This document shows, piece by piece, positions 8,585 through 51,219 of a stretch of 63,049 nt of DNA; the stretch's first letter is position 1, and every line of letters begins with the position of its first letter. The stretch lies in contig NMRA01000244.1 in NCBI GenBank assembly GCA_002633005.1, positions 501,400-564,448 on the forward strand, in the 5' to 3' direction. The position numbers and the translations under genes are program-made. This DNA is from Phoronis australis (lineage: Eukaryota > Animalia > Phoronida). The notes beneath the pieces were generated by a model, which did not search any database, was not told the DNA's origin, and saw nothing but the letters and a program-made list of their open reading frames with translations.

Positions 8585-11347
8585 ATGGATTTCAACTCCT
8601 GTTTTACCCTTATTCTGGGATTGTGTTCCCTGGTAAAACCTCTTCAAGCATGTACAATCAACAAAAATGCAATTGCACGCGGGGGAAATATTTTAGTAGA
8701 GTCGTGTGGAATACAGGAAGTTCTGCAAATGTTGTCTAGTGGCTTGAACTTTGTTAGTGTTAAAACGGCAAGGTTCAGAGGCAGTCAGATCAAATTTGTT
8801 CCAGGAGGAATTTTTGATGGCCTAGTACAAGTCGTGAGGTTAGATATTAGTAACAACCACATTCAGACAATCTCTGAAGCAGCGTTTACGAAGTTAGGAA
8901 ATCTGAAAATTATTTACCTTGGAAACAACAACATGTCCGTGGTGCCGGATGGAGTTTTTACTCGTTTGGAAAACCTGGAGACATTGGATTTACAGTTTAA
9001 CAGAATTCAGACGATTTCTGAAAACGCATTCTCGGAAATGTCAAGTCTCAAAGTGTTGGACTTGGGATCCAATTTAATTTCTTCATTCCCGGCCACCTGT
9101 CTTCCGGCAGTGTCCACGCCATTTAAGATATACTTGATGGATAATATCTTTACAAGTGCAAATAACACCGCTTTTAGTAGAAGAAGCCATGTTCGAGAAG
9201 TCTATTTAGAGCACAACAGTCTGTCGTCCTTGCAACCAAACTTTTTCGAAGGCTTGGAGAACGCCGAGGAAATCTATTTGGATTCTAATCAAATCGATGG
9301 ATTAATGGACTCGCCGTTTAGAAACCTTGGTGCCTTGCTCGTTCTCAGTCTCCGTCATAACAAAATCTCAACTGTTAATGTATCATCTTTCCGAGGACTG
9401 TCTCATCTCGAACGGCTGGACCTCAGTCGTAACTACATCGAACAACTTAAAAGGAGAGTGTTTGAACACCTCCCGTTGCTATGCATTCTTTACATTACTG
9501 GCAATAGACTGAAAACGATTGAAAAAGGTGCGATGGATGGTCTTCGTTTTCTGCGTCACTTGGATTTATCTGATAATGAGATTGGTCTGATTGAACAAGA
9601 CTGGACAGAAACTCCTATGGTGTGGCATATAGATTTATCCCAAAATGCGTTGAAAATTGTAACAAACGAAACTCTGTACGGCTTATATGCGATGAAGCAA
9701 CTTTATATGTCCGACAACAAAATTGCAGCGTTTAGTAACGATGCGTTTGCCACTTTATTACAACTCAAAAGGTTGTCCCTGAGTGCCAATAATATCAGGA
9801 GCTTACCAGTTTTACTTTTTAAGCCCACTCAATCACTAACTTACCTTAAGATGAATGTCAATGAATTTTCGGAAGTAAGACATGACATCTTCAAGTACTG
9901 CTCCTTGACTAAACTCGATATCCACGTACATTCACTCTCGCAACTTCCGGCGACAGCAGCTCCGACCTTAAGCATTCAATTTAATTTGCCTGGTCCTGTG
10001 CAACATGACATACATTCAGGTCAATTATCTGTCGCGTATTTCGGAAATGAACCCTTCATCCTATCATTGTCAATTATGCAGCTGGTGCGAGCTGAACGAA
10101 TAAGTATTCCAAGCAGCAAAATCTCTCATGTTGAAGATAAGGTGTTTGTACATATGGAAACTATGATGGTGTCTTCGTTGTCTTTGCAGCTTAACGAAAT
10201 CACGCGATTGACGAATAATACTTTTGTCGGTCTAACCTATCTTTCGAACTTGAATTTAAAAGGTAATCTGATTGCGGACATTCAAAAAGGAACATTTCAG
10301 TCACTGCCACGCTTAAAAAAATTGTCACTTGGAAGTAATAAATTAAACTACTTATCCCTTGGTTTGTTCAGCAATTTAAATCTATTAAATATCATTGATT
10401 TGTCAGGTAACGAAATAGTGAAAATTGACGAAAGTTGTTTTGAAGATCTTATTATGTTGGGACAAATGGATCTTAGCAATAACCGCCTTAAAAATATCAC
10501 TAGGTACACATTCAACGGCCCCCTTCAAAATTTAGTGCATCTGTCGCTAAGTCAAAACGAAATTACTTCAATAGACGAGAGCGCGTTTGCTAATCTAAGG
10601 GGCGTGGTCAACCTAAATCTGAGCCACAACAACATCGATCACGTGCCAGGAAAATTATTTGAGTCGCTCATCAATCTTCGCTATTTAGCTTTGGATAACA
10701 ACTTGATAAAAGGAATCGGAAATATTGTTCTACCAAATCTCTCAGATATGTACACTTTGGACGTGTCTAACAACCAAATACAAGTGTTGCCCAAGATCAT
10801 CATTGACCATGCTATAGCAAGACTTAGGCCTTTTGAGCTTAAACTTCAGAGGAATCCTTTTCATTGCAACTGTTTATTGAGAGATTTTCAAGATTTATTT
10901 AGGAAAAGCGGACTTACTATTCTGGAATTTGTCGAAGTACCAACTTGTCATACACCATTTTTCTCGAGTCCAAATCATGAGAAGTTTGTCAATCTCAAAC
11001 TGACATGCACCAAGCCTTCTGTTCCAGAAATCCGTTTTGAAGTAGTAAATGGCAACCTAGCAGTGTATTGCTCGTCTGATGGAGATCCCGCACCGACTGT
11101 CACAATTGTCACCCCTGCTGGAGAAACTTATGAATTCACATCTCTTCCCTCCGAATTACGCATTGAAGGGAGTGTAAATTTGACACCCCTTGACATCATC
11201 CACAGATCTAAAGGTGTACTGTGTAATGCTACGAACGAGGTTGGAACCTGGGAAAGTGTAGCAGTAGTTCCAAATCTAAGCAGTTCATTGAGATTTGCAC
11301 GAATCCTATTGTTTGCGCATGCCGTTTGGGTTTACCTCGTCTTTTAG
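8585..11347 (+). CDS. Single-exon LRR + LRRCT + Ig-like cell-surface protein, probably GPI-anchored (920 aa), paralog A
   Basis: ATG at 8585 aligns with the paralog start. Signal peptide MDFNSCFTLILGLCSLVKPLQAC; about 25 LxxLxLxxNxI repeats; NPFHCNC..C..P (LRRCT); C.SDGDP.P.V....LCNATNEVG (Ig); C-terminal NLSSS + hydrophobic tail with no cytoplasmic domain. Confidence 0.93.
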   Translation: MDFNSCFTLILGLCSLVKPLQACTINKNAIARGGNILVESCGIQEVLQMLSSGLNFVSVKTARFRGSQIKFVPGGIFDGLVQVVRLDISNNHIQTISEAAFTKLGNLKIIYLGNNNMSVVPDGVFTRLENLETLDLQFNRIQTISENAFSEMSSLKVLDLGSNLISSFPATCLPAVSTPFKIYLMDNIFTSANNTAFSRRSHVREVYLEHNSLSSLQPNFFEGLENAEEIYLDSNQIDGLMDSPFRNLGALLVLSLRHNKISTVNVSSFRGLSHLERLDLSRNYIEQLKRRVFEHLPLLCILYITGNRLKTIEKGAMDGLRFLRHLDLSDNEIGLIEQDWTETPMVWHIDLSQNALKIVTNETLYGLYAMKQLYMSDNKIAAFSNDAFATLLQLKRLSLSANNIRSLPVLLFKPTQSLTYLKMNVNEFSEVRHDIFKYCSLTKLDIHVHSLSQLPATAAPTLSIQFNLPGPVQHDIHSGQLSVAYFGNEPFILSLSIMQLVRAERISIPSSKISHVEDKVFVHMETMMVSSLSLQLNEITRLTNNTFVGLTYLSNLNLKGNLIADIQKGTFQSLPRLKKLSLGSNKLNYLSLGLFSNLNLLNIIDLSGNEIVKIDESCFEDLIMLGQMDLSNNRLKNITRYTFNGPLQNLVHLSLSQNEITSIDESAFANLRGVVNLNLSHNNIDHVPGKLFESLINLRYLALDNNLIKGIGNIVLPNLSDMYTLDVSNNQIQVLPKIIIDHAIARLRPFELKLQRNPFHCNCLLRDFQDLFRKSGLTILEFVEVPTCHTPFFSSPNHEKFVNLKLTCTKPSVPEIRFEVVNGNLAVYCSSDGDPAPTVTIVTPAGETYEFTSLPSELRIEGSVNLTPLDIIHRSKGVLCNATNEVGTWESVAVVPNLSSSLRFARILLFAHAVWVYLVF

Positions 11348-12767
11348 CCTTATTTTCTCTCACGTGATCTCAAAATACAAAGCCTATCCATGCTAAGGTT
11401 ATATAGGGCCTTATTGAAAAAACTCCATTGATCTAAATTAGTACAAAACTATAGAATTTAATTCAGCAAAAGTATATATTTTATGAAAGCAGAATTTGCG
11501 TAGAATTTAACCAAATTTTATACGATATAACCATTCAAAATATCTCCAAACACTGTTTTCGTTTCGTTTCCTGCAAAAGTTAAACATTTTAGTAAATGCA
11601 ACTTGAAAAGTGAACAAAGCATATTATCGCATTTTGCTAACAGAACCTAAGACTTCATATAGTGAACGTATAACAGTGTTTATTCATGCTCGCACCCGGG
11701 GGGAGTTGGTTCTCGGGGGGGGGGGGGGGTTTCANNNNNGGGGTTTCAATGAGGCCTCCATTTGGCGAAGTCATGGACCAAACTATCCGCCTCATAAAAA
11801 CAAAAACTCAGAGAAAAGGTTGAAAACGAGACAAAAGTCCACTAAAATGACTGGAACCACCAAAAATCGGCGAATGCACAATTCATAGCTCTGAATGTAC
11901 TCCGTGAATCTTAGTAAAGTGTTCACATTTTCAAAAAATCGGGGCCGAATTATTTTAGGCTAGGTGCGCATTAAGTCACTGTTTTCCGAGAATCACGAGT
12001 GTGTCGGTTTCGAAAAGTACCAAAACTGATTCCACGGCTTCATTTTTTCCAGAAACTCGGAGGATTCCCAGACTTCATATTTGTAGTGCACATATATAGA
12101 GGATGTAACGCTATTGGCCTCCTGTAGCGTACATCTACTGTCGCGGATACAGACCTATGTTTATCCCAGACGCTTTGAAGAAATTCAGTGCAATACCGCC
12201 ATATAGTAAAAGCATTCACTATTGCACTCCCGGGACTACTTTAACTCTGAATTGGAAATTGCCAATGGCCGGTGATTGTCGACTTGGCGTCGTCAGCCAG
12301 CTTGGTCATCAAAATTTCCTAAAATAGTTCACAGTAATATAGTTGCAGCAGTCTAAATAGCCCTCAGCACGCAATCAGGTCCCAAACATAACATTTGGTA
12401 CAAAATTGTTAATTAAATAACACTTCTGTAAATCATATCGTCAACATGAACCCATTCGCCGATTCCTCTATAACTAAAATGTTAAATATTGTTGTTATTT
12501 AATTATTTTCAGAAAATGCTACAAGTTTATTGCGCAATTAATGTCGTTCCATCTTTGTTGTTTCTTCTCAAGTAATAAATTGTTACATTTAAAACTGTTT
12601 CTTTTACTAAAGAAAACTTGTAACATAGGGCTCATGTACATACATATAGGAAGTGATCCGCCACGTGAACGGTTTGGGTTAATTATTTAAAAAGGTACGG
12701 AAAATATGAACATAATTAAGAATTCGAAGCCTATGAGATAAATAAAAACGTACCTCGATTGGCGTAG

Positions 12768-12860
12768 ACGAAGTAATATTCCCATCGACATTATTTCGCG
12801 TATCTACCGAAACCGGTCGATACGCGGAATTATGTCTCGTGGAATATTACTTCATCTACG
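12768..12860. repeat. Hairpin (foldback) dispersed repeat; relatives at about 33585-33710 and 52708-52830
   Basis: gacgaagtaatattcc...ggaatattacttcatc inverted arms; shared downstream segment atattactt....cg.c.ctctc...acgt.ttgtg in all three. Confidence 0.55.
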
Positions 12861-12969
12861 GCACTCTCGGAACGTCTTGTGTGTGTGTACGGGCTCTTCA
12901 CTTGTATAAGGACTGGCTCTACTTTCTCGTATTTCTCTGTAAATACATGTACCATGTAGTATATAATAC

Positions 12970-13745
12970 CCGTATTTTCATATAAACACATTGAAAAAGG
13001 TTCTGTCCCCTTCACAAAGTTTGTGGCATTTTCTTCAAATTACCACCAATAGGCATAGATTTTAAATCATTATTTTCTGTATTTAATGTTGGGAAATGTC
13101 CCGGTACGTGCAGCACGGAAACGCAGCAGTTTCGGTCCCGACAGCGACTTGTGATACGCGGTTGACCGTTTCGGTTTTTGTTGTTGACATCACCGTCCCG
13201 TCTGTTGTTATCTGGCTAGCAGCCTGGATACTGACTTTCGGTGAACACGAAAATGTCTGGCAACAGCAGCCAAGGTGCACCCTGATTCCACCAAACCAAT
13301 TGCACGTGCTCTTTCTAAAATTGTCAACTTCTCCACCACAGTGTTGTCAAGCAAGAGACTTTAGGCAAACGAACACCTAAGGCTGACACAGCAATGTGCT
13401 TAACCAATAGTGCTTTGGACCCACCAGCATAACGGCAAAAAATAGTCCCCTCTGTTGGTATTCATTGATCAAGACAACAATTAAGTGACCTGCCATTATG
13501 AGCTTAGGTAAGGAGTGAGGGCAATTTTGATGTTTTTGAAATTGACTTCTGTGCCTTTTCTGGGCCCCCCTATACAACGCAGTGCGCTTCATGAATAATA
13601 AAATATTTCCCAACATTCAATGAAGAAATAAATAAGCTTTGAAATGACGTATAATTTACGCGCATTGTTGGCAATTTGAAGAATATACCACACATTTTCT
13701 GAAGGGGACAGAACCTCTTTTGAGAGGATTATATATGGGATAATA
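12970..13745. mobile_element. Inverted-repeat (MITE-like) element carrying a truncated Tc1 remnant (about 13100-13572)
   Basis: 12995-13050 is the reverse complement of about 13662-13720. The inner part matches the Tc1 end at 56230-56796, including its TIR. Confidence 0.6.
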
Positions 13746-15122
13746 AAACAATATCTTCATCACCGGCAAGAGCATGCGCACAAATTAGTTCACGTTGGCC
13801 GCGCACGCACTGCCAAAGAATGTCTTAGAAATCGACGACATTTCGTGAGTCGGATCAACAAATAGTTTCGCAAAGCACGTCTCAAATCGAGATTGAAAGC
13901 TTTTAAAACTTTTTGTAGGACGTAAGTTGTGAACATTTATCATCAGGGGTCTCTGTTTCTGAAAAGTGACAACAATTTGGTCTAACGCTTTCATTTCACC
14001 ATTGTTGAAAATCGTGCAGTCAAGTAATTATGAGCGTAAGACAGTCTACAAATAATTCATAAAAATTATCCAAGTAAATATTAGTTAATATGCTTATAAT
14101 TTCAGAGACTTTGCTCGTTTGCTCACGGCAAATTTATCGCAAACTATTTTGCCAGTGGCATACCACGAACTATGTTAAAAAGTGTAACAAGACAAGCGTT
14201 GTCACCTTATGATTATGACGTAAGTAGAATGACAAGACTCTGCAAGATGGGCGTGGAAAAACCCCACGGGCATCTAATAGGAAAAGAAAAGCTGAGGGAA
14301 TTAATAATAACCTGAAGGGCTATACAGAAAATGTATGATAACAAAAAAGAAACTCGCTCCTGGGATGGAAAGTGGGAAAATTACTGAGAAAATGCGTACC
14401 ACATTTGGGCAAGTGATATTTATTGTTATTTTCAGAAATAGTGGTCTGGAGCGGAAGACCAAATTTCGGAGTTAAGACCCTGGTATTGTGAAAATGTTGC
14501 TAAGGTAACGATGAGCATTAAAATGTTTTCTACAAAGACTGTCATCATGTCTGTCAGTGACAAGAGAGTGGTGTCTACTTAAGATGTTTATTAGCAAACA
14601 ATGCCACATGTCTGAATCCATAATAAGAACGAATAAAGTATCTCTAACCCTTATATTTTTATACAATACTGCAATAATTGTAAAAAGATAATTTTAGATA
14701 GTATACAGTACAACAATGGCACTCCCTAATGATTAGAAATTTGCTTTTAAAAGAGGATGACCTAAAAGCAGCCGAGCAACTTGACAAAAGTTTAGTTGTC
14801 CAAATCATGAATATACACACCGACCTTCGTTATCAAATATACATTCAAGAGATCAGTATCTCTCCTCATGCCACATTTGGCATTACATTGGCTTTCCCCT
14901 ATAACCAAGAAGTATTGTGCCAGTGACAAATCCCTGAGAAATTTGCCTTGGGGTTCCTGATGTAGAAAAGTGAGAGAGAGAGAGAGAGGGCACTAGTTGT
15001 GCCGTGTATGACTTTCTAAAACCGCTCTGAGGTGCTGGCGTGTTATAACTATCAATAAAATCTCTATTGGTTATAGGTACCGCTACGGATTTTTAAAGTA
15101 ACTGTTGTCGTACCAAACAAAA

Positions 15123-15363
15123 GAGGAGGCAGTGTGGCCTGGTTGATGAGTGCCCGCTTTCTTTACTCGAGGTCGTGGGTTCAAGTCCCACCATGTCACC
15201 CTGCTAAACCCTTGAGCCAGGTTTATAGCTCCTCAGCTCGGTTTTAACCACATATTAGTAAAGCATAAAAATATTTCCAGGTGATCAGTGCAATGGGCCC
15301 ACATGCGAGGCCTTCGCACGTCTGATACAACGTGTATCAGACCGCCTGCAATCATTTTTTTTT
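15123..15363 (+). mobile_element. Full-length tRNA-derived SINE with LINE-derived 3' tail and 12-bp TSD
   Basis: A-box TGGCCTGGTTG (15135), B-box GGTTCAAGTCC (15178). 15278-15363 is homologous to LINE 3922-4011; T-run tail; TSD taccaaacaaaa at 15111-15122 and 15364-15375. Confidence 0.92.
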
Positions 15364-16079
15364 TACCAAACAAAACTTCACATTAATTCACAATGCAGGG
15401 GTTCAAAATAATATTGTTTATGATTCACCCGATCCTGCTCTGAGAATTTGTGTAGAAGAAGCTACAATAAAACTTATCTTACAAGAGCTGTAATCACGAC
15501 GAGAAGGACGAGTGTCAGCAATATAGAAAAACACTTATAATTGATGGTTCCCAATGATACGTGTTTGGACTCGTTCAGAAAATTTTACATTGTTATAACA
15601 TAAAGTATAGACAGTGATCGTGTAACTTCGTACTGTAGTTTACAGGCTACGCATACCGAAGTCAGCCATTACAGGAATGTCAAAAACAAAAACAGCACAG
15701 CTGTTCAGCATGGTAGTGAGCTATTCAAAGTCGTATTCGTGGGTTATATAAGGTCTGTATTTTATTAAATATGTGATGTGACATGAATTTGTTGTTTATT
15801 ATCCTAACTTGGGTTTTAATCATTTCAAATGGATCTGATCCAGCGTTGGTCATGTACTCTTATGATTTGTTTACTGTTCCCTGGAAAATCCACACATGTT
15901 CTTAACCGGATGACCCAGTGTTCACAGACACATCCCAGAGCCAATAACCATTTCCTAATATTGCAACATTGTGATGAATTTCTTATGATTTCCATTAGCT
16001 GAACTTAGTGAATCATGAAAACAATCTTAAGAACTGTTTTTAAGATTGTTTTCGTGAGTCACTTAGTTCAGTTGCACCA

Positions 16080-17110
16080 CATTAGTCTAATGTCCTAGTG
16101 ATGCCCATATCAAGCAGTCTGTTTAAAAATAGTATCAATAACCATGTTTTTAATGGACTTAAGAAAGCAAAACTATTTCTGTACTCAACTGACAATGACT
16201 TTGATCACGTTTGTTGTAGGTCAAAATAGAAGCACCAACGTTATTTACGTATGCGCTAATTTTAAAGTTCTTGACAATGACTTTTGATGACGTAGATGTG
16301 CCATACAGTGAAAGCTTTGTTGAGCAAAATGTTGCACGGTTGCGTACATTTTACTTTCAGAAATTTCTTGAACGACTCGTGGACGAAGTTGAGGCTAAGA
16401 CAATTGACTTTTGCAAAACATTTACTGACTTCACTGCTTGAAGTGCTTTGGATGTTTTTTTCCAAGCTTGCCATCTTTGAATCATATATTATGATACATG
16501 CATGCTTTGCTTCAAATACACCAGTGGTATCAATTGTAATTTCTCAAATTGTATCCCAAATGAAACAATACATGCTACCACTTGGAATGGGCAACATAAA
16601 AACTCTGGAAGACAGTCTGTGTCTTCCAAATTTTGATCTCTGTTCAGATCAGCACGTAGGTTAACAAGCCCAGCACAGACAATCAAGTAGTTGTCCACTG
16701 ATTTTGTGCTTGACACTGGAATACTGGTACTCAAAATTTTGAAAACTTTTTTGAAGTCTCCGTATTGCTCACTCCAAATGGATTCTTAATCTGGAAATGA
16801 GCGGTATTTTTGTAAGATCTTTTTGACTAATGTGTGACTTGCCTTTGGTGAAAGCTGTTATGTTTAACTTAACTCGCCTTGGAAACAGGAGGTCATCAAC
16901 AGTAAAACCTCTATCTGCCATAACTTTGTCTTTGGGTAAAACGTATTCCAGAAATCCAGATTTTTCAACAATGTATTTGTCACTCCACCTGCCCCCCACT
17001 GCTTTATATACGTACATGGTGCGCCCATTTGGTGCAATTGCAATCATACACTTTGCAGTATTGTGCTATTTGTACTGGCTATAGGTTTCACCCCTATCAA
17101 CGATTTCAAA
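16080..17110. mobile_element. ISL2EU/Harbinger-type DDE transposase pseudogene (-) convergent with YqaJ C-terminal remnant (+)
   Basis: Minus: IAIAPNG..GGRWSDKYIVEKSGFL..VMADRGF..LNI..F..RIHLE..IPVS..IVCAGLVNL (DDE_Tnp_4-like, with stops/frameshifts). Plus about 16277-16370: TFDDVDVPYSESFVEQNVARLRTFYFQKFL. Confidence 0.8.
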
Positions 17111-20098: not shown

Positions 20099-23000
20099 AA
20101 GTTTCTATAATTACATTTTGGGTGAAATTTCGCGATATTTCGTCAAAACGTTTCCATCGAGGAAACGATGACACAACCATGTTTGAGATCGACGTTTCAA
20201 CAATTATCTAATCATTATGATACCATATTTTGTTTTCTGTACATTATTGTAGCTGAGTATGATTTTTTATTAATATAGAACTGTCGTTTACATGCAGCAC
20301 TCTAAGGTTGTTTTTGTTTTCCATTTCCTGCTTCTAACAATATTTTCAAGCAAGTGTTCGAATGAGTCTAACTTGTGCTGCAACCCATTTTAGCACTTTG
20401 GAAACCGTTCTATTGGTGTGTTAAGAAAATCTTCCCCTTGAAATTTTATTTTCATGAGTACGTACATTTTCACTTGCTCGTACCTAAAACGACGTACTAC
20501 GGTATTTCGACCTAGGTACGGTGTCCAACACAGAGAAGATTTAGATGGACCTGGAAAACTGGAACTTGTTGGTTTGTCGAGATTTCCCCGCGTGAACATC
20601 AGGTTGGGTTTTCTATGAGTTCACCACAAGGTTATGTTAGTCTCATTTGCTGTAAATCTGTATTGCAGGAAACTGAAGTATTTGACTGAAGGCGTGACCC
20701 GACTGCCAATATGACCGTGGCAGTCGTGACCAATTCACAGCAAGCGCAGCATTTTTTCGATGTTGCTCCTTGATTATTTGGTTCGTCAACATTAAGCACA
20801 TATCTGAACACTTTTTGATTTCATTAGAAGTCTGTTCTTAAAAGGATTATTGTCTCGTGTCTATTTTAATATTTTGGGTAATACTGAGCACATAATTATA
20901 TGAACATTTATTGATTTCAGTAGAGTTCTGTTCATGAAAGGGTTACTGCCCCTTTACTATTTTAGTACTTTTGTCATTATTAAGCACAAATATGAACAGT
21001 TATTGATCTCATTAGAACACCGTTCTAAAGAGGAATGACTCAACTCACTGTATGGTTCCCGCAAGTTTAAATTGAGTACATTTTCTTTTAACCCTTTTCT
21101 GTTTTCTTGGGAAGTGGAATTAGTTGGCGTCTTCGCACCCCAAAGTTTGCTATCCTACATGCTTTCGTTTGCTGCCTCGCTTCAGGCTTACCAAAAGCAA
21201 ACGGCTTTGGTACGTGGTTACCCGAACCGGAAAAAGCCAAAACCTTCGGATCTTTAAAAATGTAATAATTATATACACAAGTTCTGCATTAAACACCATT
21301 TCACTAATGACCTAAGTTCAATACAGTTTAATAATTAAGATTGATTCACAACAGCTTAGACACTTGATTGACAGTCTCAGTTCAACCACATTGTAATTAT
21401 GGGTTACAATAGATAAATAAAGGTATCTGTTTTTTGAAGGAAAGTCTTATCTGGGATCAAGCAAACCTCATCAAACTGTAACTAATTAAGTATTCACTTG
21501 GTCGATTGAAAGGAAGATGGAACACGTGAATACTCTTCAGATGTCTCCACATGAGATCTGCCTTCTTATAGTCAACCACTGAATTAGATGACTGATATGG
21601 CTTCTTATAGTCAACCATTGAATTAGATGACTTATATGACTTCTTATAGTCAACCACTGAATTAGATAACTGACATGGCTTCTTATAGTCAACCATTGAA
21701 TTAGATGAATGATATGGCTTCTTATAGTCAATCATTGAATTAGATGATTGATATGGCTTCTTATAGTCAACCACTGAATTAGATGACTGATATGGCTTCT
21801 TATAATGCAACGCCAAATGAGAGGAGATCTCCCTTCTTATAGTCCAACCCCAAATGAGATAACAGATCTGCCTTAAAATAGTCAAACCTCGAATGAGATG
21901 GTAGATCTGTTTTCTTATAGTCAAACCCCAAATGAGATGTCAGACCTGTTTTCTTATAGTCAAACTCCAAAAGAAATGACTGGCCTGTCTTCTTATTGTC
22001 ATTCGCCAAACGAGATGACAGATCTGCCTTCTTATAGCCACACCCCAACTGAGATGAAACGTCTGTCTTCTGATAGTTAAACACCAAATGAGATGCCTTC
22101 TTGTACTAAAATCTCAAATGACATGACAGATCTGCCTTCTTATAACCACACCCCAACTGAGATGAAACGTCTGTCTTCTGATAGTTAAACACCAAATGAG
22201 ATGCCTTCTTGTACTAAAATCTCAAATGACATGACAGATCTGCCTTTTNAAGTTTCTATAATAACATTTTGGGTGAAATTTCGCGATATTTCGTCAAAAC
22301 GTTTTCATCGAGGAAACGATGACACAACCATGTTTGAGAACGACGTTTCAATATTTATCTAACATTCTGATACCATATTTTGTTTTCTGTATATTATTTT
22401 AGCTTAGTATGACTTTTTATTAATATAGAACCGTCGTTTACATGCTGCACTCTAACGCTGTTTTTTTTACATTTCCTGCTTCTAACAATATTTTCATACA
22501 TGTTTTCGAATGAGTCTAACGTGTGCTGCAACCCATTTTAGCACTTTGGAAACCGTTCTATTGGTGTGTTAAGAAAATCTTCCCCTTGAAATTTTGTTTT
22601 CATGAGTACGTACATTAACAGTTGCTCGTACCTAAAACGACGTACTACGGTATTTCGACCTAGGTACGGTATCCAACAGAGAGAAGTTTTAGATGGACCT
22701 GGAAAACTAGAACTTGTTGGTTTGTCGAGATTTCCCCGCGTAAACATCAGGTTGGGTTTTCTATGAGTTCACCACAAGTTTATGTTAGTCTCATTTGCTG
22801 TGAATGTGTATTGCAGGAAACTGAAGTATTTGACTGAAAGCGTGACCCGACTGCCAATATGACCGTGACATGTAGACCAATTCACAGCAAGCGCAGCATT
22901 TTGTCGATGTTGCTCCTTGATTATTTGGTTCGTCAACATTAAGCACATATCTGAAAACTTTTTGATTTCATTAGAAGTCTGTTCTTAAAAGGATTATTGT

Positions 23001-24503
23001 CTCGTGTCTATTTTAGTATTTTGGGTAATACTAAGCACATAATTATCTGAACATTTATTGATTTCAGTAGAGTTCTGTTCATGAATGGGTTACTGCCCCT
23101 TTACTATTTTAGTATTTTTGTCATTATTAAGCACAAATATGAACAGTTATTGATCTCATTAGAACACCGTTCTAAAGGGGAATGACTCAACTCACTGTAT
23201 GATTCCCGCAAGCTTAAGTTGAGTACATTTTCTTTTAACCCTTTTCTGTTTTCTTGGGAAGTGGAATTAGTTGGCGTCTTCGCACCCCAAAGTTTGCTAT
23301 TCTACATGCTTTCGTTTGCTGCCTCGCTTCAGGCTTACCAAAAGCAAACGGCTTTGGTACGTGGTTACCCGAACCGGAAAAAGCCAAAACCTTCGGATCT
23401 TTAAAAATGTAATAATTATATACAAAAGTTCTGCATTAAACACCATTTCACTAATGACCTAAGTTCAATACAGTTTAATAATTAAGATTGATTCACAACA
23501 ACTTAGACACTTGATTGACAGTCTCAGTTCAACCACATTGTAATTATGGGTTACAATAGATAAATAAAGGTATCTGTTTTTTGAAGGAAAGTCTTATCTG
23601 GGATCAAGCAAACCTCATCAAACTGTAACTAATTAAGTATTCACTTGGTCGATTGAAAGGAAGATGGAACACGTGAATACTCTTCAGATGTCTCCACATG
23701 AGATCTGCCTTCTTATAGTCAACCACTGAATTAGATGACTGATATGGCTTCTTATAGTCAACCATTGAATTAGATGACTTATATGACTTCTTATAGTCAA
23801 CCACTGAATTAGATAACTGACATGGCTTCTTATAGTCAACCATTGAATTAGATGAATGATATGGCTTCTTATAGTCAATCATTGAATTAGATGATTGATA
23901 TGGCTTCTTATAGTCAACCACTGAATTAGATGACTGATATGGCTTCTTATAATGCAACGCCAAATGAGAGGAGATCTCCCTTCTTATAGTCCAACCCCAA
24001 ATGAGATAACAGATCTGCCTTAAAATAGTCAAACCTCGAATGAGATGGTAGATCTGTTTTCTTATAGTCAAACCCCAAATGAGATGTCAGACCTGTTTTC
24101 TTATAGTCAAACTCCAAAAGAAATGACTGGCCTGTCTTCTTATTGTCATTCGCCAAACGAGATGACAGATCTGCCTTCTTATAGCCACACCCCAACTGAG
24201 ATGAAACGTCTGTCTTCTGATAGTTAAACACCAAATGAGATGCCTTCTTGTACTAAAATCTCAAATGACATGACAGATCTGCCTTCTTATAACCACACCC
24301 CAACTGAGATGAAACGTCTGTCTTCTGATAGTTAAACACCAAATGAGATGCCTTCTTGTACTAAAATCTCAAATGACATGACAGATCTGCCTTCTTATAA
24401 CCACACCCCAACTGAGATGAAACGTCTGTCTCTTGATAGTTAAACACCAAATGAGATGCCTTCTTGTACTAAAATCTCAAATGACATGACAGATCTGCCT
24501 TTT
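20099..24503. repeat. About 2.15-kb tandem duplication joined by a single N at 22249 (probable haplotype overlap)
   Basis: 20099-22248 closely matches 22250-about 24500; identical ORF-track entries offset by 2147-2148. Confidence 0.85.
21548..22248. repeat. 39-bp minisatellite grading into a 108-bp higher-order repeat (copy 1)
   Basis: Unit cttcttatagtcaaccactgaattagatgactgatatgg, then diverged variants and a 108-bp composite unit. Confidence 0.9.
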
Positions 24504-24585
24504 TATAGCCATACCCCAAATCATAATAAAATGAGGGACCTGCCTTCTGATAGCCATATCCCAAATGAAAGGTCATGTCTGCCTC
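23695..24585. repeat. 39-bp minisatellite / 108-bp higher-order repeat (copy 2, one extra 108-bp unit)
   Basis: tgacagatct recurs at 24271, 24379 and 24487 (period 108). Confidence 0.9.
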
Positions 24586-24802
24586 CATTCCTAGGTGGTG
24601 ATTTGTGTTTAAGACTCAGTTGGCCCATGGTGGTCGACATTTATAACATTTGTACCAACGACGGCACTGCTGCATTGGATGATGGGTCCTCTTTTTACCA
24701 GTAAAATGTTCAAGCAAGTATTGTCTTTAATGTGATGAGCTAGTCTCTTCTAGGTACTCATGGGATTTCTTTTTCTTGAAGTAGTTCTGATCACTCGATG
24801 AA

Positions 24803-37292
<12,490 letters not shown>

Positions 37293-38389
37293 CTTGTTTC
37301 CCAGTTCTCACCAGATCTCTCACATGGATGTCTGTAAAAGCCACAACAACGTCAACAAAAGTCGAACATTTCAGTTACTAAAGGTGTAGGCCTAAAGCAA
37401 AGATATTGTATGCACTGCTACGAAGAATGAGGGCTTTAAATTTATCAGCATTGGCAAACGTTTGGTTATACTGAAACCATCTCATCGCCTCATTTGTTAA
37501 TTGTTTCTTAAAACAAAATAACTAATTCATCCCTAATTTTATCAAAGCTAATGTGCAAATATAAGCCTAGTACAGTTTGCACTAATCATTTGAATACATC
37601 GTTTATGAAAGCGTTGAACAGCTGACCCAGGATAAAGTTAGAGCTCTGGGGGTAACCTTCTGAAACATATTGTACATGAGGGTTCATAGTGCTGTCTTTT
37701 GTGTATTCCTTCTTATTTCATGGTTTCATATATTATATGGGTCACTAGCACCTCTCACTCAGGAGCAGCAGATTGTTTTGATTTCATAAACTGTCACACC
37801 AATTACTAAGTGGGGCCAACAAAACACTCACCACGCCAAAAGCGGTTGAATTCCTCGGTTCTTCACTCGACGAGTACGAAGCACTGAGTTCCCGTTAGCA
37901 GTTTTAGTTCGAATGAACGAGATGCGCTGATGGCTCAGGTAACGCCTAAATGTTATCAGAGGGATTTGGAACCAGAACGTGACCAAGCAGCTCTAGTCAC
38001 AAGGGGTCGATGCTGTACTTGAACTTGGAATTCTGGTTATCGCAAGATCGCCGTGTGAACTTGGAATTGCCTTGGAAACTTGGCAAGTTCATACCACGCT
38101 CAAATTGAAAAGAATTTGCGCTACACTAAATCAAATCACAGTTTAATGAAATTATGTAAATGTTGTTTTTGTGTTTTTCAGCATCGCACAAATTTTCAGT
38201 TATACAAAAGGTCAAAACACCCTAAACTAACCAGGAGCTGATAAGGTACAGTAGATGTTGACTAATACAAGCTTACATGAAGCATTATACATGTAACCTA
38301 GATCGCTAGGTAATGAAAGTATAGTGAGGTACGTGCAGTACAAAATCTAGATATCGAATACATGGAGATAACAAATATATACACATTTA

Positions 38390-39200: not shown

Positions 39201-39239
39201 ATAGGAGACACCTTTTATTTGTGCAATGCTCGATTGTCA

Positions 39240-42964: not shown

Positions 42965-43039
42965 GCGCTCTCATAAACATTTTATGTCTGGTATTACAGA
43001 AATTTATGTCCTTTTCTTTGTGTATAACTGCCGTGTGTA

Positions 43040-43093
43040 GATCATTATATTAGTCTTACTGCCACATAATACAATAAGACTAATATAATGATC
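43040..43093. repeat. Perfect 19-bp-stem hairpin
   Basis: gatcattatattagtctta / taagactaatataatgatc with 16-nt loop. Confidence 0.8.
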
Positions 43094-44763: not shown

Positions 44764-46045
44764 CAGGGATATACCCAGGCTTTTAGTCTTGAAAAACCCT
44801 GCTCGCCAGCTGGGCGAGTGCCGGAGCCAGAAAATCTACTCGCCAAGCCCGAAGTTCGGTCACCCGGCCGTTGGCGCCAGTCACCACAAACTTGCTGCTA
44901 ATTTAAATAAAAATCATCGTTTCGTGCACTGATGTCACCATCTATTNNNNNNNNNNNNNNNNNNNNNNNNNNNNNNNNNNNNNNNNNNNNNNNNNNNNNN
45001 NNNNNNNNNNNNNNNNNNNNNNNNNNNNNNNNNNNNNNNNNNNNNNNNNNNNNNNNNNNNNNNNNNNNNNNNNNNNNNNNNNNNNNNNNNNNNNNNNNNN
45101 NNNNNNNNNNNNNNNNNNNNNNNNNNNNNNNNNNNNNNNNNNNNNNNNNNNNNNNNNNNNNNNNNNNNNNNNNNNNNNNNNNNNNNNNNNNNNNNNNNNN
45201 NNNNNNNNNNNNNNNNNNNNNNNNNNNNNNNNNNNNNNNNNNNNNNNNNNNNNNNNNNNNNNNNNNNNNNNNNNNNNNNNNNNNNNNNNNNNNNNNNNNN
45301 NNNNNNNNNNNNNNNNNNNNNNNNNNNNNNNNNNNNNNNNNNNNNNNNNNNNNNNNNNNNNNNNNNNNNNNNNNNNNNNNNNNNNNNNNNNNNNNNNNNN
45401 NNNNNNNNNNNNNNNNNNNNNNNNNNNNNNNNNNNNNNNNNNNNNNNNNNNNNNNNNNNNNNNNNNNNNNNNNNNNNNNNNNNNNNNNNNNNNNNNNNNN
45501 NNNNNNNNNNNNNNNNNNNNNNNNNNNNNNNNNNNNNNNNNNNNNNNNNNNNNNNNNNNNNNNNNNNNNNNNNNNNNNNNNNNNNNNNNNNNNNNNNNNN
45601 NNNNNNNNNNNNNNNNNNNNNNNNNNNNNNNNNNNNNNNNNNNNNNNNNNNNNNNNNNNNNNNNNNNNNNNNNNNNNNNNNNNNNNNNNNNNNNNNNNNN
45701 NNNNNNNNNNNNNNNNNNNNNNNNNNNNNNNNNNNNNNNNNNNNNNNNNNNNNNNNNNNNNNNNNNNNNNNNNNNNNNNNNNNNNNNNNNNNNNNNNNNN
45801 NNNNNNNNNNNNNNNNNNTTTTTTACTGCCGGAGCATCGACACGATGACCAAACTGAACCTTAAATTCATGATAAAAACAGCACAAGGAGGAGGAAAATT
45901 ATTCATATTCATCTGGGAAACGATATATAGTGCTTTTGCGCTCTGAAATTCGCTCGCCACCGGGCGACCGGCAAGTCAACTTCTACTCGCCCAGCACCAT
46001 TTTTACTCGCATTGGCGACTGGGCGAATGGCTAAGTATATCCCTG
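44764..46045. mobile_element. Possible hAT-like non-autonomous element spanning the assembly gap
   Basis: Termini cagggatatac / gtatatccctg and repeated ctcgcc/ggcga subterminal motifs; no clean TSD; interior is N. Confidence 0.4.
44947..45817. other. Assembly gap (N run)
   Basis: Run of n. Confidence 1.
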
Positions 46046-48453
46046 GGAAGGATACCGACGAGATATTACTGGAATTGGTACGTTCAGGCACTGCACAGTA
46101 CACCATGGCCAGCTGATGATCACTCACGAGGTTTTATCAGTGTGCCTCGCTTTCGATCAGTATTTAAAGATGGCGCGGGAAGATGGCGCTTTCGTGAAAT
46201 AGGTGAATAGCAGTGATGATACTGTAGAGCAATGGGTGAAATTCAGGAAAATGGACTGGGTTGACAATGCTGAGTACATTCGGGAAACCAACTGGCGTCC
46301 GCCTAAGCATAACATTGGCTTGTTGTCGCAATCGCCTTCCACCTGTGTGATGTTAGAACAGTTAGCGCACACACACCGACACGCCAAGATTGAACGGTCT
46401 TTGTTCGCCATGAACTGTGATATAAGGGCGGTGAATTGCATTGTGGGATATGATCTAGTTTGTTTTCCCCAACACCATGTCACGGTGTCAAAGTTTCAAC
46501 ATTTCGCAGATTTTTTATTTTCGCTTTTTTAAAATAACTAAACATTCAGTTATACGATAATTTGAATAAAATACATCCAAATCGCAATATCTTGAAGATA
46601 TTATTTCAATTTAACATACTTGGACCTTGCAAATTACACTTTAAGGCTTCAACAGGATGATGTAATAGTATCAAAACATCGAGTTCACTGGAGACAGAAA
46701 GAGATAAGAAAATGTGTATTAAAGGCAATGCGCTGGTTTCTAAGCAGAAAAAAACAAATCTGAACTTTTGGAAGCGTGAGTCAATTGAATATATCAGTGC
46801 TTTTACTACTGATTTTCTTTCAGTTATAAACTGTAGAAGACCAGGCATGTAACGTCGGCATGTACAAGCACGTGAAGTAACATGAAGCAGAAAAGAAGCT
46901 TAAAATGTATGATTCATATCCTTAATGGTTGCTCATTCACAACATGCACTTGGGAGGTCGTAGTACCGGAAATGCAGTATGATGACATAACTTTGAACGT
47001 TATAATTCAAACTCAAACACCGACTTTTTTTGCTGTGGGATTGTTTTGTTACTACATGAAGTTCAACTCGTGAAAAAATTCTATAACGTAAGCTTTTTGA
47101 CATTCAGATACAAGGGAAATCTCTGTAATGATTTAATTGGCCTATCGCCAGGATTTTGAGCGACGGCTTATTTGACCAATCAGAAAGCAGCATTCTTGAC
47201 ACACCTTCATTTCCACTTTACCCGAGAAACAACACATTGCTGGGTAAACCTTATTGTTTGTCTGTCGACTTTTCGCAAAGGGGCTTGCGGTAGGTCAGTT
47301 ATCGAGGATGCAAAATTAGTTTATGCCAATTTGAATGGAAGCTACCAGTCCTAAAAATCTACAGGTCAGTGCAATACATGTGTTTGGCCGAGGGTAAAAT
47401 GCCCATCAAGTCTGTATGAGTTAGATATCGATTTGAGTGACGTTTTACTGTCAATGACAAATTTATGTTCCGCCAGTTCCATGAAGCGGCGTATTATAAA
47501 AATGATAAAAATAAACGAGTTGATTTCAAAATTCCAATTAGGATAGCAAAAATCGATAATGAGCCTACGGCAGCTGAGGTGGAAATATTACTCTAAGCGA
47601 TCGATCATATTATAATTGGCACAATCGGATATGAAGGTGCCACAGCCCACATCTTTGTATGGTTGGTTAATGGTGTCCTGAGAAAGAACTCACAATGATG
47701 TGTCTTCTTCAAATTAACCCCCGACACCACCACCATCACCACCAACACAACCATCGTCATCACAACAACCATCATCATCATCATCATCACCACAACCATC
47801 GTCATCATCAGCATTTTCGTCATCTTTTTCTTCAGGCGCCACTTAGGAGTCGTTGTCGGAGTCTTAATCTATGGTACAAAATCTTATTCGCGTGCGAAAT
47901 AACCGGATACTAAAAAAGTATTGGGTGCGCCTCTATACGAGGCACTGGACTGTGAACATGGGATCAGTTGCACCTATATGCGGGGCACTGGACTATGGTC
48001 ATGGGTTCAGATTATATCAGATAAATCAAAGTCAACGTTTTATTTGTGTTGTGTTTTTTAAATCAAATTACAGAGTCTGAAAACTGCGAAGGGATTTGAA
48101 TGTCATCTATTGGCAAAAAGGCCCATCTGCCAACGACCAAAGAAAAATACTGGGTTAGTGCAAATGTTTAGGGCTAGGACGAGGGTTTGTCTCATAAAAA
48201 ATGGGATTGCGCCGTTCCTCTTCCCCATGCTACATCATATAACATACAGTTTGGGGAGACTGCGCACAACTTCGCTCGTATGGGGGGTATTATTTTTAAC
48301 TACCAATCACGACTCGAGAGACATTTTATAATCCGTGAAAATACAGAGTTCATACGTTGAGTCATTTATCCGACGTCTTCTCTCAACGTGTTCTGTTTGA
48401 AAGACTTCAATGCAAGCATAGTGAAGTGACTTGACAAATTCCGTCAGTGTAAC

Positions 48454-51219
48454 ATGGATGTTAACTCCTGTTTTACCCTGATTCTGGGATTGTGTTCTCT
48501 GGTTAGACCATTTCAAGCATGTACAACCAACCCAGATGTCGTTGCACGCGGGGGAAATCTTTTAGTTGAGTCTTGCGGAATACTGGACATACTGGAAATG
48601 TTGTCCAGTGGTTTGAACTTTGCTCGTGTTAATGCGGCAAAGTTCAGTGATAATCAGATCAAATTTGTTCCAGGTGGAATTTTTGATGGCCTAGTACAAG
48701 TCGTAAGATTAGAACTAACCCACAACAACATTCAGACAATCTTTGAAACAGCGTTTACGAAGTTGGAGAATCTGAAAATTATTTACCTTGGAAACAACAA
48801 CATATCCATGGTGCCGGATGGAGTTTTTACTCGTTTGGAATACCTGGAAATATTGGAATTACCGTTTAACAGAATTGAGACGATTTCTGAAAACGCATTC
48901 TCGGAAATGTCGAATCTCAATGTGTTGGACTTGAGATCCAATTTGATTTCTTCATTCCCGGCCACCAGTCTTCCGGCAGTGTCCACACCATTTACGCTGT
49001 TCTTGATGGATAATATCTTTACAAGTGTAAACAACAACGCTCTCAGTACAAGAACCAATGTTCGAGAAGTCTTTTTAGAGCGCAACAAACTGTTTTTCTT
49101 GCAACCAAACATTTTAGATGGCCTGGAGAACGCCGAGGACGTCAATTTGAATTCTAATCAAATCGACAAGCTAATGGACTCGCCGTTTAGAAACCTTGGT
49201 GCCTTGCTCTCTCTCAGACTCTGTTATAACAAAATAGCAGACGTTAATGCGTCATCTTTCCAAGGACTGTCTCAACTCCACCTATTGGACCTCGGTGGTA
49301 ACTACATCGAACGGCTTGAAAAGAGATTGTTTAAACACCTCCCGTTGCTAGAATATCTTGATATTTCTGACAACAGGCTGAAAACTGTTGAAAAAGGTGC
49401 GATGGATGGTCTTCGTTTTCTGAGTCACTTGGACCTATCTGAGAATGAGATTGGTCTGATTGAACAAAACTGGATGGAAAATCCTGTTATGTGGTACCTA
49501 GATTTATCCCACAATGCGTTGAAGATTGTAACAAACGAAACTCTGTACGGCTTATTTATGTTAGAGTACCTTTTTCTGTCCAACAACAAAATTGTAATGC
49601 TTAGTAGCTATGCGTTTGCCAATTTATTACAACTCAAAAAGTTGTACCTGAGTGGCAATAGCATTAGAAGTGTATCTGCTTTACTGTTTAAGCCCACTCA
49701 ATCGTTATACCACCTTACTATGCAAGTCAGTGAATTTGCGGAAGTAAGACATGACATCTTCAAGTACTGCTCGTTTACTAATCTCCTCATCATTGTACAT
49801 TCAGCTTCGCAACTTCCGGCGATAGTCGTTAAAAAACTAACCATTAAATTTAAATTACCTGGTCCTGTACAAAATGACATACTCTCAGAGGAATTATGGC
49901 TAGACTATTTGGGAACTGAATCCTTCGTCCTATCATTGTCAATTATGCAGCAGGTGCGGACTGAACGAATGAAGTTTCAAGGCAACAAAATCTCTCATAT
50001 TGAAGATAGGGTGTTTGCACATATGGAAACTATGATGGTGTCTTCATTGTCTTTGCATATTAACGAAATCACGCGATTGACGAATAATACTTTTGTCGGT
50101 CTAAACTATCTTTCGAACTTGAATTTAAAAGGTAATTTGATTGCAGACATTCAAAAAGGAACATTTCAGTCACTGCCACGCTTAGAAAAGTTGTCACTTG
50201 GAAGTAATAGGTTAAACTACTTACCCCTTGGTTTGTTCAGCAATTTAAAACTGTTAAACTTTATTGATTTGTCAAGTAACGAAATAGTGAAAATTGAAGA
50301 AAACTGTTTCCAAGATCTTATTATGTTGGGACAAATGGATCTTAGCAATAACCGCCTTAAAAATATTACTCGATACACATTCAGTGCCTCTCTTCAAAAT
50401 TTAGCGTATCTGACGCTAAGTCACAATGAAATTTCCTCAATAGACCAGAGCGCTTTTTCTAATCTAAGGGGAGTGGCCAACCTAAATTTGAGTGACAACA
50501 ACATCGAGCACGTGCCAGAGAAATTATTTGAGTCGCTCATCAATCTTCGCTATTTAGCTTTGGATAACAATTTGATAAAAGGAATAGGAAATATTGTTCT
50601 ACCAAATCTCCCAAATATGTACACTTTGGATGTGTCATACAACCAAATACAAGTTTTGCCCAAGATCGTCATTGACCATGTTATAACAACACATCTGCCT
50701 TTTCAGTTTAAAATTAATCAGAATCCTCTTCATTGCAACTGTTTATTGAAAGATTTGCAAGATTTCTTCGCGAAATACCAACATACTGGCGCCGTGAACC
50801 GAGTCGATGCACCATCTTGTCATACACCATTTTTCTCGAGTCCGAATCGCGAGAAATTTGTTAATCTCAATCTGACCTGCATAAAGCCTTCTATTCCAGA
50901 AATCCGTTTTGAAGTAGTAAATGGCAACTTAGCAGTGTTTTGCTCGTCTGATGGAGATCCCACACCGACTATCACAATTGTCTCCCCTGCTGGCGACACT
51001 CATGAATTCACAACTCTACCCTCCAAATTACGCGTTGAAGGGAGTGTAAATTTGACACCCCTTGACATCATCCACAGATCTAAAGGTGTTCTGTGTAATG
51101 CTACGAACGAGGTTGGAACCTGGGAAAGTGTAGCAGCAGTTCCAAATCTAAGCAGTTCATTGAGATTCGCATCAATCCTGTTATTTGCGCAGGTTGTTTG
51201 GGTTTACCTCGTCCAGTAA
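48454..51219 (+). CDS. Single-exon LRR + LRRCT + Ig-like cell-surface protein, probably GPI-anchored (921 aa), paralog B
   Basis: Same architecture as 8585-11347; uninterrupted ORF; collinear with one extra residue in the LRRCT loop. Confidence 0.93.
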   Translation: MDVNSCFTLILGLCSLVRPFQACTTNPDVVARGGNLLVESCGILDILEMLSSGLNFARVNAAKFSDNQIKFVPGGIFDGLVQVVRLELTHNNIQTIFETAFTKLENLKIIYLGNNNISMVPDGVFTRLEYLEILELPFNRIETISENAFSEMSNLNVLDLRSNLISSFPATSLPAVSTPFTLFLMDNIFTSVNNNALSTRTNVREVFLERNKLFFLQPNILDGLENAEDVNLNSNQIDKLMDSPFRNLGALLSLRLCYNKIADVNASSFQGLSQLHLLDLGGNYIERLEKRLFKHLPLLEYLDISDNRLKTVEKGAMDGLRFLSHLDLSENEIGLIEQNWMENPVMWYLDLSHNALKIVTNETLYGLFMLEYLFLSNNKIVMLSSYAFANLLQLKKLYLSGNSIRSVSALLFKPTQSLYHLTMQVSEFAEVRHDIFKYCSFTNLLIIVHSASQLPAIVVKKLTIKFKLPGPVQNDILSEELWLDYLGTESFVLSLSIMQQVRTERMKFQGNKISHIEDRVFAHMETMMVSSLSLHINEITRLTNNTFVGLNYLSNLNLKGNLIADIQKGTFQSLPRLEKLSLGSNRLNYLPLGLFSNLKLLNFIDLSSNEIVKIEENCFQDLIMLGQMDLSNNRLKNITRYTFSASLQNLAYLTLSHNEISSIDQSAFSNLRGVANLNLSDNNIEHVPEKLFESLINLRYLALDNNLIKGIGNIVLPNLPNMYTLDVSYNQIQVLPKIVIDHVITTHLPFQFKINQNPLHCNCLLKDLQDFFAKYQHTGAVNRVDAPSCHTPFFSSPNREKFVNLNLTCIKPSIPEIRFEVVNGNLAVFCSSDGDPTPTITIVSPAGDTHEFTTLPSKLRVEGSVNLTPLDIIHRSKGVLCNATNEVGTWESVAAVPNLSSSLRFASILLFAQVVWVYLVQ

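What the first reader, a model, noticed from the sequence alone, without database searches (positions are those of the whole stretch)
8585..51219. Paired intronless LRR-Ig receptors diverging specifically on the concave ligand-binding face: candidate diversified invertebrate immune receptor family
Seen: the two proteins are collinear and keep many convex/linker stretches identical (IKFVPGGIFDGLVQVVRL, VPDGVFTRLE, EKGAMDGLRFL, LKIVTNETLYGL). The exposed x positions of xxLxLxx change in almost every N-terminal LRR: RLDISNN/RLELTHN, TLDLQFN/ILELPFN, KIYLMDN/TLFLMDN, EIYLDSN/DVNLNSN, VLSLRHN/SLRLCYN, ERLDLSRN/HLLDLGGN, CILYITGN/EYLDISDN, KQLYMSDN/EYLFLSNN, TYLKMNVN/YHLTMQVS. Several C-terminal LRRs (SNLNLKGN, GQMDLSNN, RYLALDNN) and the Ig are nearly invariant. 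Established: concave beta-strand hypervariability marks ligand-recognition LRRs (agnathan VLRs, plant NLR/RLP, sea urchin TLRs). Inference: a variable N-terminal recognition module on a conserved stalk, under diversifying selection, acting in immunity or allorecognition.
Basis: partly seen in the sequence, partly recalled or inferred. Interest (0 to 1): 0.85.

Follow-up and report, generated by a model that had tools for sequence, protein, structure and literature searches.

The report
Fast-evolving GPI-type LRR-Ig receptor family
Two intact genes, likely part of a family of six or more copies in this animal, encode long leucine-rich-repeat proteins predicted to be tethered to the cell surface, whose inner binding face has changed faster than neighbouring neutral DNA, so they likely recognise changing foreign molecules, although no ligand and no clear expression has been shown.

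Summary
Confirmed. ORFs A (8585-11347) and B (48454-51219) are single-exon paralogs, 74.8% identical: signal peptide, 25 regular LRRs around an irregular island, LRRCT, one degenerate Ig, hydrophobic GPI-like tail, no cytoplasmic part. Concave sites of the 16 N-terminal repeats differ at 46 of 80 positions, convex at 51 of 209. Codon models give omega 2.2-2.4 (p<1e-4; all 25 repeats 1.6-1.7, p 0.002-0.011; rest 0.65-0.70). With the class's own synonymous rate it is 1.9, p 0.10. None of 29 control LRR pairs shows as strong a contrast. One DNA run holds six further versions, with 3-6 different residues at each of six concave sites examined; about 6-7 loci are inferred. Correction: the stalk is not uniformly conserved, as the LRRCT insert also varies. 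An Owenia LRR-Ig-GPI array shows the same design. Best reading: a germline-diversified, membrane-tethered non-self receptor family working like sea urchin TLR or VLR ectodomains (0.55). It is neither a TLR nor a VLR. Function is untested; three RNA runs give almost no reads.

The parts
8585..11347 (+). Gene A, single-exon ORF, 920 aa: signal peptide, LRR solenoid, LRRCT, Ig-like domain, GPI-like tail
48454..51219 (+). Gene B, single-exon ORF, 921 aa, paralog of A (74.8% aa; 85.8% nt over the duplicated block)
8585..8650 (+). A: predicted signal peptide (residues 1-22, judged by inspection and hydropathy; no dedicated predictor run)
8831..9907 (+). A: 15 regular N-terminal LRRs (residues 83-441), concave face under positive selection; counterpart in B 48700-49776
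9908..10168 (+). A: island of about three irregular repeats (442-502; omega 1.75, p 0.019; low model confidence) plus one semi-regular repeat (503-528)
10169..10819 (+). A: 9 conserved C-terminal LRRs (529-745); counterpart in B 50038-50688
10820..11008 (+). A: LRRCT with a variable insert (alignment columns 771-789) at the place of the VLRA/VLRB hypervariable insert; counterpart in B 50689-50880
11009..11272 (+). A: degenerate Ig-like domain (two cysteines, seven predicted strands, no canonical Trp, no Pfam hit on its own); counterpart in B 50881-51144
11273..11347 (+). A: small-residue spacer and terminal hydrophobic stretch, GPI-signal-like, no cytoplasmic tail; counterpart in B 51145-51219
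8414..14271 (+). Duplicated DNA block carrying A, homologous to 48288-57503 in three pieces (85.8%, 77.6%, 81.0%); flanks give a neutral distance of 0.165-0.233
49202..49281 (+). Stretch of B (codons 251-276) where six further versions in DNA run X1 show hypervariable concave codons

Best explanation
A and B are two members of a lineage-restricted family, inferred at about 6-7 or more loci, of single-exon LRR-Ig genes whose N-terminal concave residues have diverged faster than neutral sites, and whose products are predicted to be GPI-tethered horseshoes that likely bind fast-changing non-self molecules such as microbial or parasite surfaces. Shown: intact paralogs, domain order, omega above 1 on the concave face against gene-wide and flanking neutral rates, further copies in DNA. 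Predicted: secretion, GPI anchor, solenoid fold. Inferred: each paralog presents a different binding surface (N-terminal beta-sheet plus LRRCT insert) on a conserved stalk of 9 LRRs and Ig; lacking a cytoplasmic part, it would pass bound ligand to a signalling partner, trap it, or act after release as an opsonin. Diversity is germline-encoded, by duplication and point mutation, not by somatic assembly.
For: Omega of N-terminal concave sites 2.21-2.40 in four model variants (two codon-frequency models, with and without double-nucleotide changes; p 6e-6 to 6e-5), all 25 repeats 1.59-1.71 (p 0.002-0.011), rest of gene 0.65-0.70; 2.45 with only the N-terminal region as background (p 5e-5). dS is the same in N- and C-terminal repeat regions (0.215, 0.212) and matches flank distance (0.165-0.233), so the N-terminal part is not simply older. 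Control: 29 disjoint LRR pairs at 55-90% identity have a concave/convex ratio of 0.23-1.68 (median 0.96), A versus B 1.85 (55 of 130 against 78 of 341). Run X1 holds seven contigs over B 49216-49275, one identical to B; with A, six concave codons carry 4, 4, 4, 6, 3 and 6 residues against a mean of 1.8 for 13 convex codons; 24 of 40 listed variant rows fall in 18 of 80 bases. Aromatic/His and acidic residues are enriched on the variable face (20% and 22% against 8% and 15% on exposed convex sites). Confident model of one solenoid (pLDDT 86) matching TLR-type ectodomains. Precedent: positive selection on concave LRR strands in tandem sea urchin TLR families (PMC3367398, passages); an amphioxus LRR protein binds bacteria by concave residues (PMC4731796, passages); an oyster LRR-Ig protein is reported to bind microbial molecules (as cited in PMC7734252, passage).
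Against: No functional evidence. Three RNA runs of unknown tissue (35.1 million records read) give mean depth at most 1.9 in any ORF bin at 80% likeness, roughly ten reads for the family. If the concave class gets its own synonymous rate, omega is 1.88 with p 0.10 (bootstrap 0.85-3.76 at kappa 1). Only two full sequences were available, and the N/C split was chosen after seeing the data. Omega elsewhere is high (N-terminal convex 0.76), so constraint is loose overall. The stretch laid was picked from the variable region, and B's own changes count in it. The control pairs are probably mostly orthologs, not young paralogs. Most LRR-Ig/FN3 families of model animals are neural (PMC2235866, passages). 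Positive selection does not tell recognition from escape.
Confidence: 0.55

Rival explanations
1. The family is a self or conspecific recognition code (gamete recognition, allorecognition or neuronal identity), each paralog or allele matching a co-evolving partner of the same species.
For: Same signature of positive selection. GPI-like tail without signalling domain suits adhesion. Near silence in bulk RNA suits a rare cell type or stage. Two half-depth contigs of equal length and start (16.8 and 27.4) look like alleles of one locus and first differ at a concave codon. The C-terminal part best matches neural LRR-Ig proteins among solved structures (LRFN1, E 2.5e-5).
Against: Neural LRR-Ig genes are usually conserved across phyla, and no ortholog above 38% identity was found. 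Change is spread over about 15 repeats, more than a single partner interface needs (inference). No linked partner gene in the window; the gene between A and B is a copine.
Confidence: 0.22
2. The proteins have an ordinary host surface role, and pathogens or toxins dock on their concave face; selection is for escape or decoy action, not for recognition.
For: Escape gives the same omega above 1 on an exposed face; 20 of 46 concave changes are radical (BLOSUM62 below 0).
Against: Escape does not by itself need several paralogs with different faces, and an endogenous ligand would normally keep part of the concave face fixed; only the C-terminal repeats are partly so (12 of 45 differ).
Confidence: 0.13
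3. Relaxed constraint after duplication: exposed concave residues drift freely in redundant, barely expressed copies, and omega above 1 is a small-sample effect.
For: High background omega (0.65-0.70), near silence in RNA, p 0.10 with the local synonymous rate. The low dS of the Ig (5 changes in 68 sites, p 0.012) hints at gene conversion that could lower gene-wide dS.
Against: Concave dN 0.37-0.39 exceeds both dS (0.17-0.21) and non-coding flank distance (0.165-0.233), which drift cannot give. Both frames are intact over 920 codons, and C-terminal framework residues show 0 of 45 changes. The contrast is absent from 29 control pairs and from one Owenia pair.
Confidence: 0.1

Closest known systems
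Expanded sea urchin sccTLR subfamilies (Buckley and Rast 2012, PMC3367398; passages read)
   Same: Germline multigene family, tandem arrays, simple exon structure, 21-25 LRRs, positive selection mainly on concave beta-strands in clusters of repeats
   Different: No transmembrane helix with TIR domain here; an Ig domain and a GPI-like tail instead; about 6-10 copies at 80% likeness or more, not hundreds
Agnathan VLRA/VLRB (PMC12264053, PMC4731796, PMC10199209; passages read)
   Same: Variable concave face plus variable LRRCT insert on a conserved membrane-proximal part; GPI anchoring of VLRB is recalled, not seen in a call
   Different: Complete germline ORFs, no donor cassettes in the 63 kb window, 25 or more LRRs, an Ig domain
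Owenia fusiformis CAH1776630.1 (P0121), uncharacterised
   Same: Four LRR-LRRCT-Ig units, read here as two genes, ending in a GPI-like tail; N-terminal modules differ at 36 of 55 concave against 34 of 139 convex sites, membrane-proximal modules at 18 of 60 against 47 of 151
   Different: Only 33% identity in LRRCT-Ig, its E-value (4e-28) sums four copies; two short LRR-Ig modules, not one long solenoid; kinship or convergence not resolved; protein-level test only
LRR_Ig/FN3 class of extracellular LRR proteins (Dolan et al. 2007, PMC2235866; passages read), including LRFN/SALM, LINGO, C. elegans IGLR-2, oyster CgLRRIG-3
   Same: Signal peptide, LRRs, LRRCT, Ig; LRRCT-Ig matches LRFN1 and TrkC weakly
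   Different: 81 of 87 members in four model species are type I membrane proteins and 2 are GPI-linked; far more LRRs here; concave face under positive selection
Amphioxus FrLRR and Bf66946 (PMC10199209, PMC4731796; passages read)
   Same: TIR-less LRR proteins that bind bacteria; FrLRR has a predicted GPI anchor
   Different: Short LRR regions, no Ig; the passages read describe no diversified paralog family

Membership tests
LRR_Ig/FN3 class of extracellular LRR proteins | Extracellular LRR array with LRRCT | tested here: met
   Pfam LRR_8 E 9e-104 and 6e-93; 25 regular repeats; model
LRR_Ig/FN3 class of extracellular LRR proteins | Ig or FN3 domain and no other extracellular domain type | tested here: met
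   No Pfam hit for the domain alone, but it aligns with both cysteines to LRFN1 and TrkC LRRCT-Ig and to I-set-bearing P0121; seven strands at pLDDT 83-95. Degenerate: canonical Trp absent
LRR_Ig/FN3 class of extracellular LRR proteins | Membrane attachment by type I helix or GPI | tested here: inconclusive
   Only the last 19 residues are hydrophobic (mean 1.67 and 1.64), no cytoplasmic tail; no GPI predictor was run
Toll-like receptors | Long LRR horseshoe ectodomain | tested here: met
   Foldseek matches to TLR13, TLR8, TLR3; best query TM-score 0.55 with TLR3
Toll-like receptors | Transmembrane helix followed by a cytoplasmic TIR domain | tested here: not met
   ORFs stop right after the hydrophobic tail; no strong splice donor in the last 300 nt; five TIR-bearing proteins hit only the two ORFs and only with their LRR parts; no TIR in Pfam scan
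Variable lymphocyte receptors (VLR) | Incomplete germline gene assembled somatically from flanking LRR cassettes | tested here: not met
   Both genes are complete ORFs; tblastn finds no LRR pieces outside them in the window. The rest of the genome was not available
Variable lymphocyte receptors (VLR) | Variable concave face and variable LRRCT insert | tested here: met
   insert omega 4.2 over 19 codons, a stretch chosen after seeing the alignment and containing an indel
Variable lymphocyte receptors (VLR) | Clonal expression on lymphocyte-like cells | not testable with these tools
   Needs single-cell data
Conserved neuronal LRR-Ig orthology groups (LRIG, LINGO, LRFN, kekkon) | One-to-one or few-to-few orthology across phyla | tested here: inconclusive
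   Region 430-920 gave only generic chaoptin/artichoke-type hits at 23-36% among the 7991 candidates scored; region 740-920 none among 468; 73 hits at E 0.001 or better among 1.84 billion representatives, best scoring at 33-36%. No ortholog found, no tree built
Pattern-recognition receptors (functional class) | Binding of microbial ligands and expression in immune or barrier tissue | not testable with these tools
   RNA runs of unknown tissue give almost no reads; binding needs bench work

The most novel reading that the evidence does not exclude
An unrecognised class of germline VLR-like receptors in lophotrochozoan-grade invertebrates: GPI-tethered LRR-Ig proteins with a positively selected N-terminal recognition face and LRRCT insert on a constant stalk, present also in the annelid Owenia, and so divergent between haplotypes (allelic patches opening at concave codons, half-depth copies) that each individual carries its own receptor repertoire for non-self or allo-recognition.
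Probability: 0.25. Interest if true: 0.75.

Novelty: new variant of a known kind. Interest (0 to 1): 0.52.

Why it matters
Diversified LRR receptors of invertebrates are known mainly as TLRs and NLRs, which carry their own signalling domain. A TIR-less, likely GPI-tethered LRR-Ig family with the VLR pattern of variation (concave face plus LRRCT insert) would show that the binding design of jawless-vertebrate antibodies has a germline counterpart in another lineage, and gives a small, single-exon, easily expressed set of genes for ligand screens. The principle itself, positive selection on the concave face of expanded LRR families, is established, which caps the interest until a function is shown.

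Tried and rejected
No whole genome is held, so paralogs could not be pulled full length and PAML-type site models could not be run. The protein atlas gave no result for either query. No RNA holder was listed by the run search, and the 2015 contig run X8 laid nothing on the short stretch of B; neither is evidence on expression. Idea that the island is an internal copy of the N-terminal cap: no alignment, dropped. Idea that A and B are alleles split by the assembly: rejected, since their flanks differ by 15-20% whereas tandem doublets around single N letters are 94-97% alike, and a copine gene lies between them. Idea of a gene-conversion tract from a long identical run: longest run 55 nt, not beyond shuffles (p 0.19). 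A's own letters are missing from X1 contigs at several places; the tool drops some records, so this was not interpreted. Searching relatives of P0122 gave only three proteins, one from the annelid Paralvinella. Nine literature searches listed no paper on such a family; the library lacks most subscription journals, and the original oyster LRRIG and amphioxus immune-genome papers were not seen. No supplements were read.

Full report
Observation. The window holds two long + strand ORFs, A (8585-11347, 920 aa) and B (48454-51219, 921 aa), identical at 689 of 921 aligned residues. They lie in a duplicated block that starts 171 nt before the start codon and runs about 3 kb past the stop; the non-coding parts differ by 0.165-0.233 substitutions per site. 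A copine gene on the minus strand (about 24.8-37.3 kb) separates them.

Anatomy. Each protein has a predicted signal peptide, a cap, 15 regular LRRs (83-441), an island of about three irregular repeats and one semi-regular repeat (442-528), 9 regular LRRs (529-745), an LRRCT, one Ig-like domain and a terminal hydrophobic stretch. An AlphaFold2 model from an 87-row alignment (A, B and 85 of the proteins held) is confident (mean pLDDT 86, pTM 0.79), with low confidence in the N-terminus, residues around 346-363 and the island; it matches TLR-type and other typical LRR solenoids. The Ig has no Pfam hit alone but aligns to LRFN1 and TrkC. The only 19-residue window above hydropathy 1.6 is the very end, nothing follows it, and no TIR-coding DNA is found in the window. 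A GPI anchor is inferred by inspection, the same criterion that Dolan et al. used for tentative calls (PMC2235866, passages).

Selection. Concave sites were defined by repeat position (x2, x3, x5, x7, x8). In the 16 N-terminal repeats 46 of 80 differ, against 51 of 209 convex and 12 of 45 C-terminal concave sites. Counting gives dN 0.37 against gene-wide dS 0.21 (ratio 1.75, bootstrap 1.22-2.43). Maximum-likelihood codon models give omega 2.21-2.40 (p 6e-6 to 6e-5) for this class, 1.59-1.71 (p 0.002-0.011) for the concave sites of all 25 repeats, which removes the after-the-fact N/C split, and 0.65-0.70 for the rest. dS is equal in the N- and C-terminal repeat regions and equals the flank distance. 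Against this: with its own synonymous rate the class gives omega 1.88, p 0.10, as it has only about 50 synonymous sites. The island (1.75, p 0.019) and the LRRCT (1.65, p 0.027; its 19-codon insert 4.2, chosen after inspection) are also fast, so the stalk is not uniformly conserved. The insert lies where VLRA and VLRB carry their hypervariable antigen-binding loop (PMC4731796 and PMC10199209, passages; the positional match is my reading of the sequence).

Controls. From 248 pairs of held LRR proteins at 55-90% identity, 29 disjoint pairs were scored (pairs with under five detected repeats were skipped; their number was not printed): concave/convex ratio 0.23-1.68, median 0.96, 14 above 1 and 15 not. 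A versus B gives 1.85 with the same script. These controls are probably mostly orthologs. In the Owenia model P0121, one pair of units at 70% identity shows the contrast (36 of 55 against 34 of 139) and the other, also at 70%, does not (18 of 60 against 47 of 151), so the contrast is not automatic for paralogs.

Family size. DNA run X1 laid on A at 80% likeness gives summed contig depths of 187-462 per ORF bin against about 41-57 for single contigs, and several pieces do not match B in number of differences. Laid on B 49171-49311, seven contigs cover 49216-49275: B itself (48.5), three more at full depth (40.8, 47.5, 57.0) and three at half depth (27.1, 27.4, 16.8); A's version is not among them. 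That makes eight versions, about 6-7 loci if the sample is one diploid animal (assumed). Decoding the table by depth sums (40 of 42 rows shown; changes within about 30 nt of an end are not listed), the concave codons 252, 253, 255, 257, 258 and 276 carry 4, 4, 4, 6, 3 and 6 different residues (two of those at 276 come from loose ends), the six framework codons 1, 1, 1, 1, 2, 1, and 13 convex codons 1.8 on average (Mann-Whitney p 4e-4). Three contigs stop aligning exactly where the next concave strand begins. Two half-depth contigs share start and length and first differ at concave codon 257, as alleles of one locus would. The stretch was chosen from the variable region, and the sequences are related, so these p-values are descriptive.

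Expression. Three RNA runs of the same species label, tissue unknown, 35.1 million records read, give at most 1.9-fold mean depth in any ORF bin and none in most, roughly ten reads in all by my estimate from depth. The family is not broadly expressed in those samples.

Relatives. No close homolog was found. The best matches to the LRRCT-Ig part are uncharacterised LRR-Ig proteins at 27-40% identity; of 20 looked up, the named ones from this search are from Owenia (two), Branchiostoma and an aphid, and P0122 has a 53% relative in the annelid Paralvinella. This fits a marine lophotrochozoan-grade invertebrate but does not prove it.

Mechanism. Most likely (0.55) each paralog displays a different binding face on the cell surface for changing non-self ligands, as in sea urchin TLR subfamilies, where selected sites lie mainly on the concave strands (PMC3367398, passages); with no cytoplasmic part it would need a partner, or act as trap or released opsonin. 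Rivals: a self or conspecific recognition code (0.22), escape from or decoy for pathogens (0.13), relaxed drift (0.10). Selection on the concave face is shown; the biological role is inferred only.

Known kinds. It belongs by architecture to the LRR_Ig class, where GPI-linked members are rare (2 of 87 in four model species). It works like TLR and VLR ectodomains but fails membership of both: no TIR, and no incomplete germline gene with cassettes as defined in PMC12264053 (passages). Nine searches found no description of such a family (listings only, except the seven papers read in passages). Plant RLPs and the large amphioxus LRR-Ig set are recalled parallels, not tested. Verdict: real, well supported as a positively selected family, function open; new variant of a known kind; interest 0.52.

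Noticed in passing
P0121 (Owenia fusiformis CAH1776630.1): The 2250-aa model looks like two fused genes, each signal peptide-[LRR-Ig]-[LRR-Ig], the last ending in a GPI-like tail; the N-terminal modules are concave-variable, the membrane-proximal ones are not.
   Followed up: partly
window 24800-37300, minus strand: Spliced copine gene (C2, C2, vWA exons) between A and B.
   Followed up: partly
window 27344-29894 / 29896-32431, 20099-22246 / 22250-24393, 53649-55030 / 57601-58970: Doublets at 94-97% identity at or near single N letters, one repeating a copine C2 exon; likely both haplotypes written in tandem by the assembly, implying high heterozygosity.
   Followed up: no
window 313-3900, plus strand: Fragmented non-LTR retroelement: DUF4780 ORF1, endonuclease-like and reverse transcriptase pieces.
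   Followed up: no
window 7600-8409 and 11442-11600: Very high-copy, transcribed repeats; one ends only 175 nt before the start codon of A, where homology with B begins.
   Followed up: no
window 16769-17065, minus strand: DDE_Tnp_4 (Harbinger-like) transposase fragment.
   Followed up: no
window 21554-22246 and 23701-24519: 39-bp and 108-bp tandem arrays with an open frame of 13-residue repeats on the minus strand; coding status not tested.
   Followed up: no
window 11009-11272 versus 50881-51144: The Ig exon part has low synonymous divergence (5 changes in 68 sites against about 20% elsewhere, p 0.012), a possible gene-conversion tract.
   Followed up: partly
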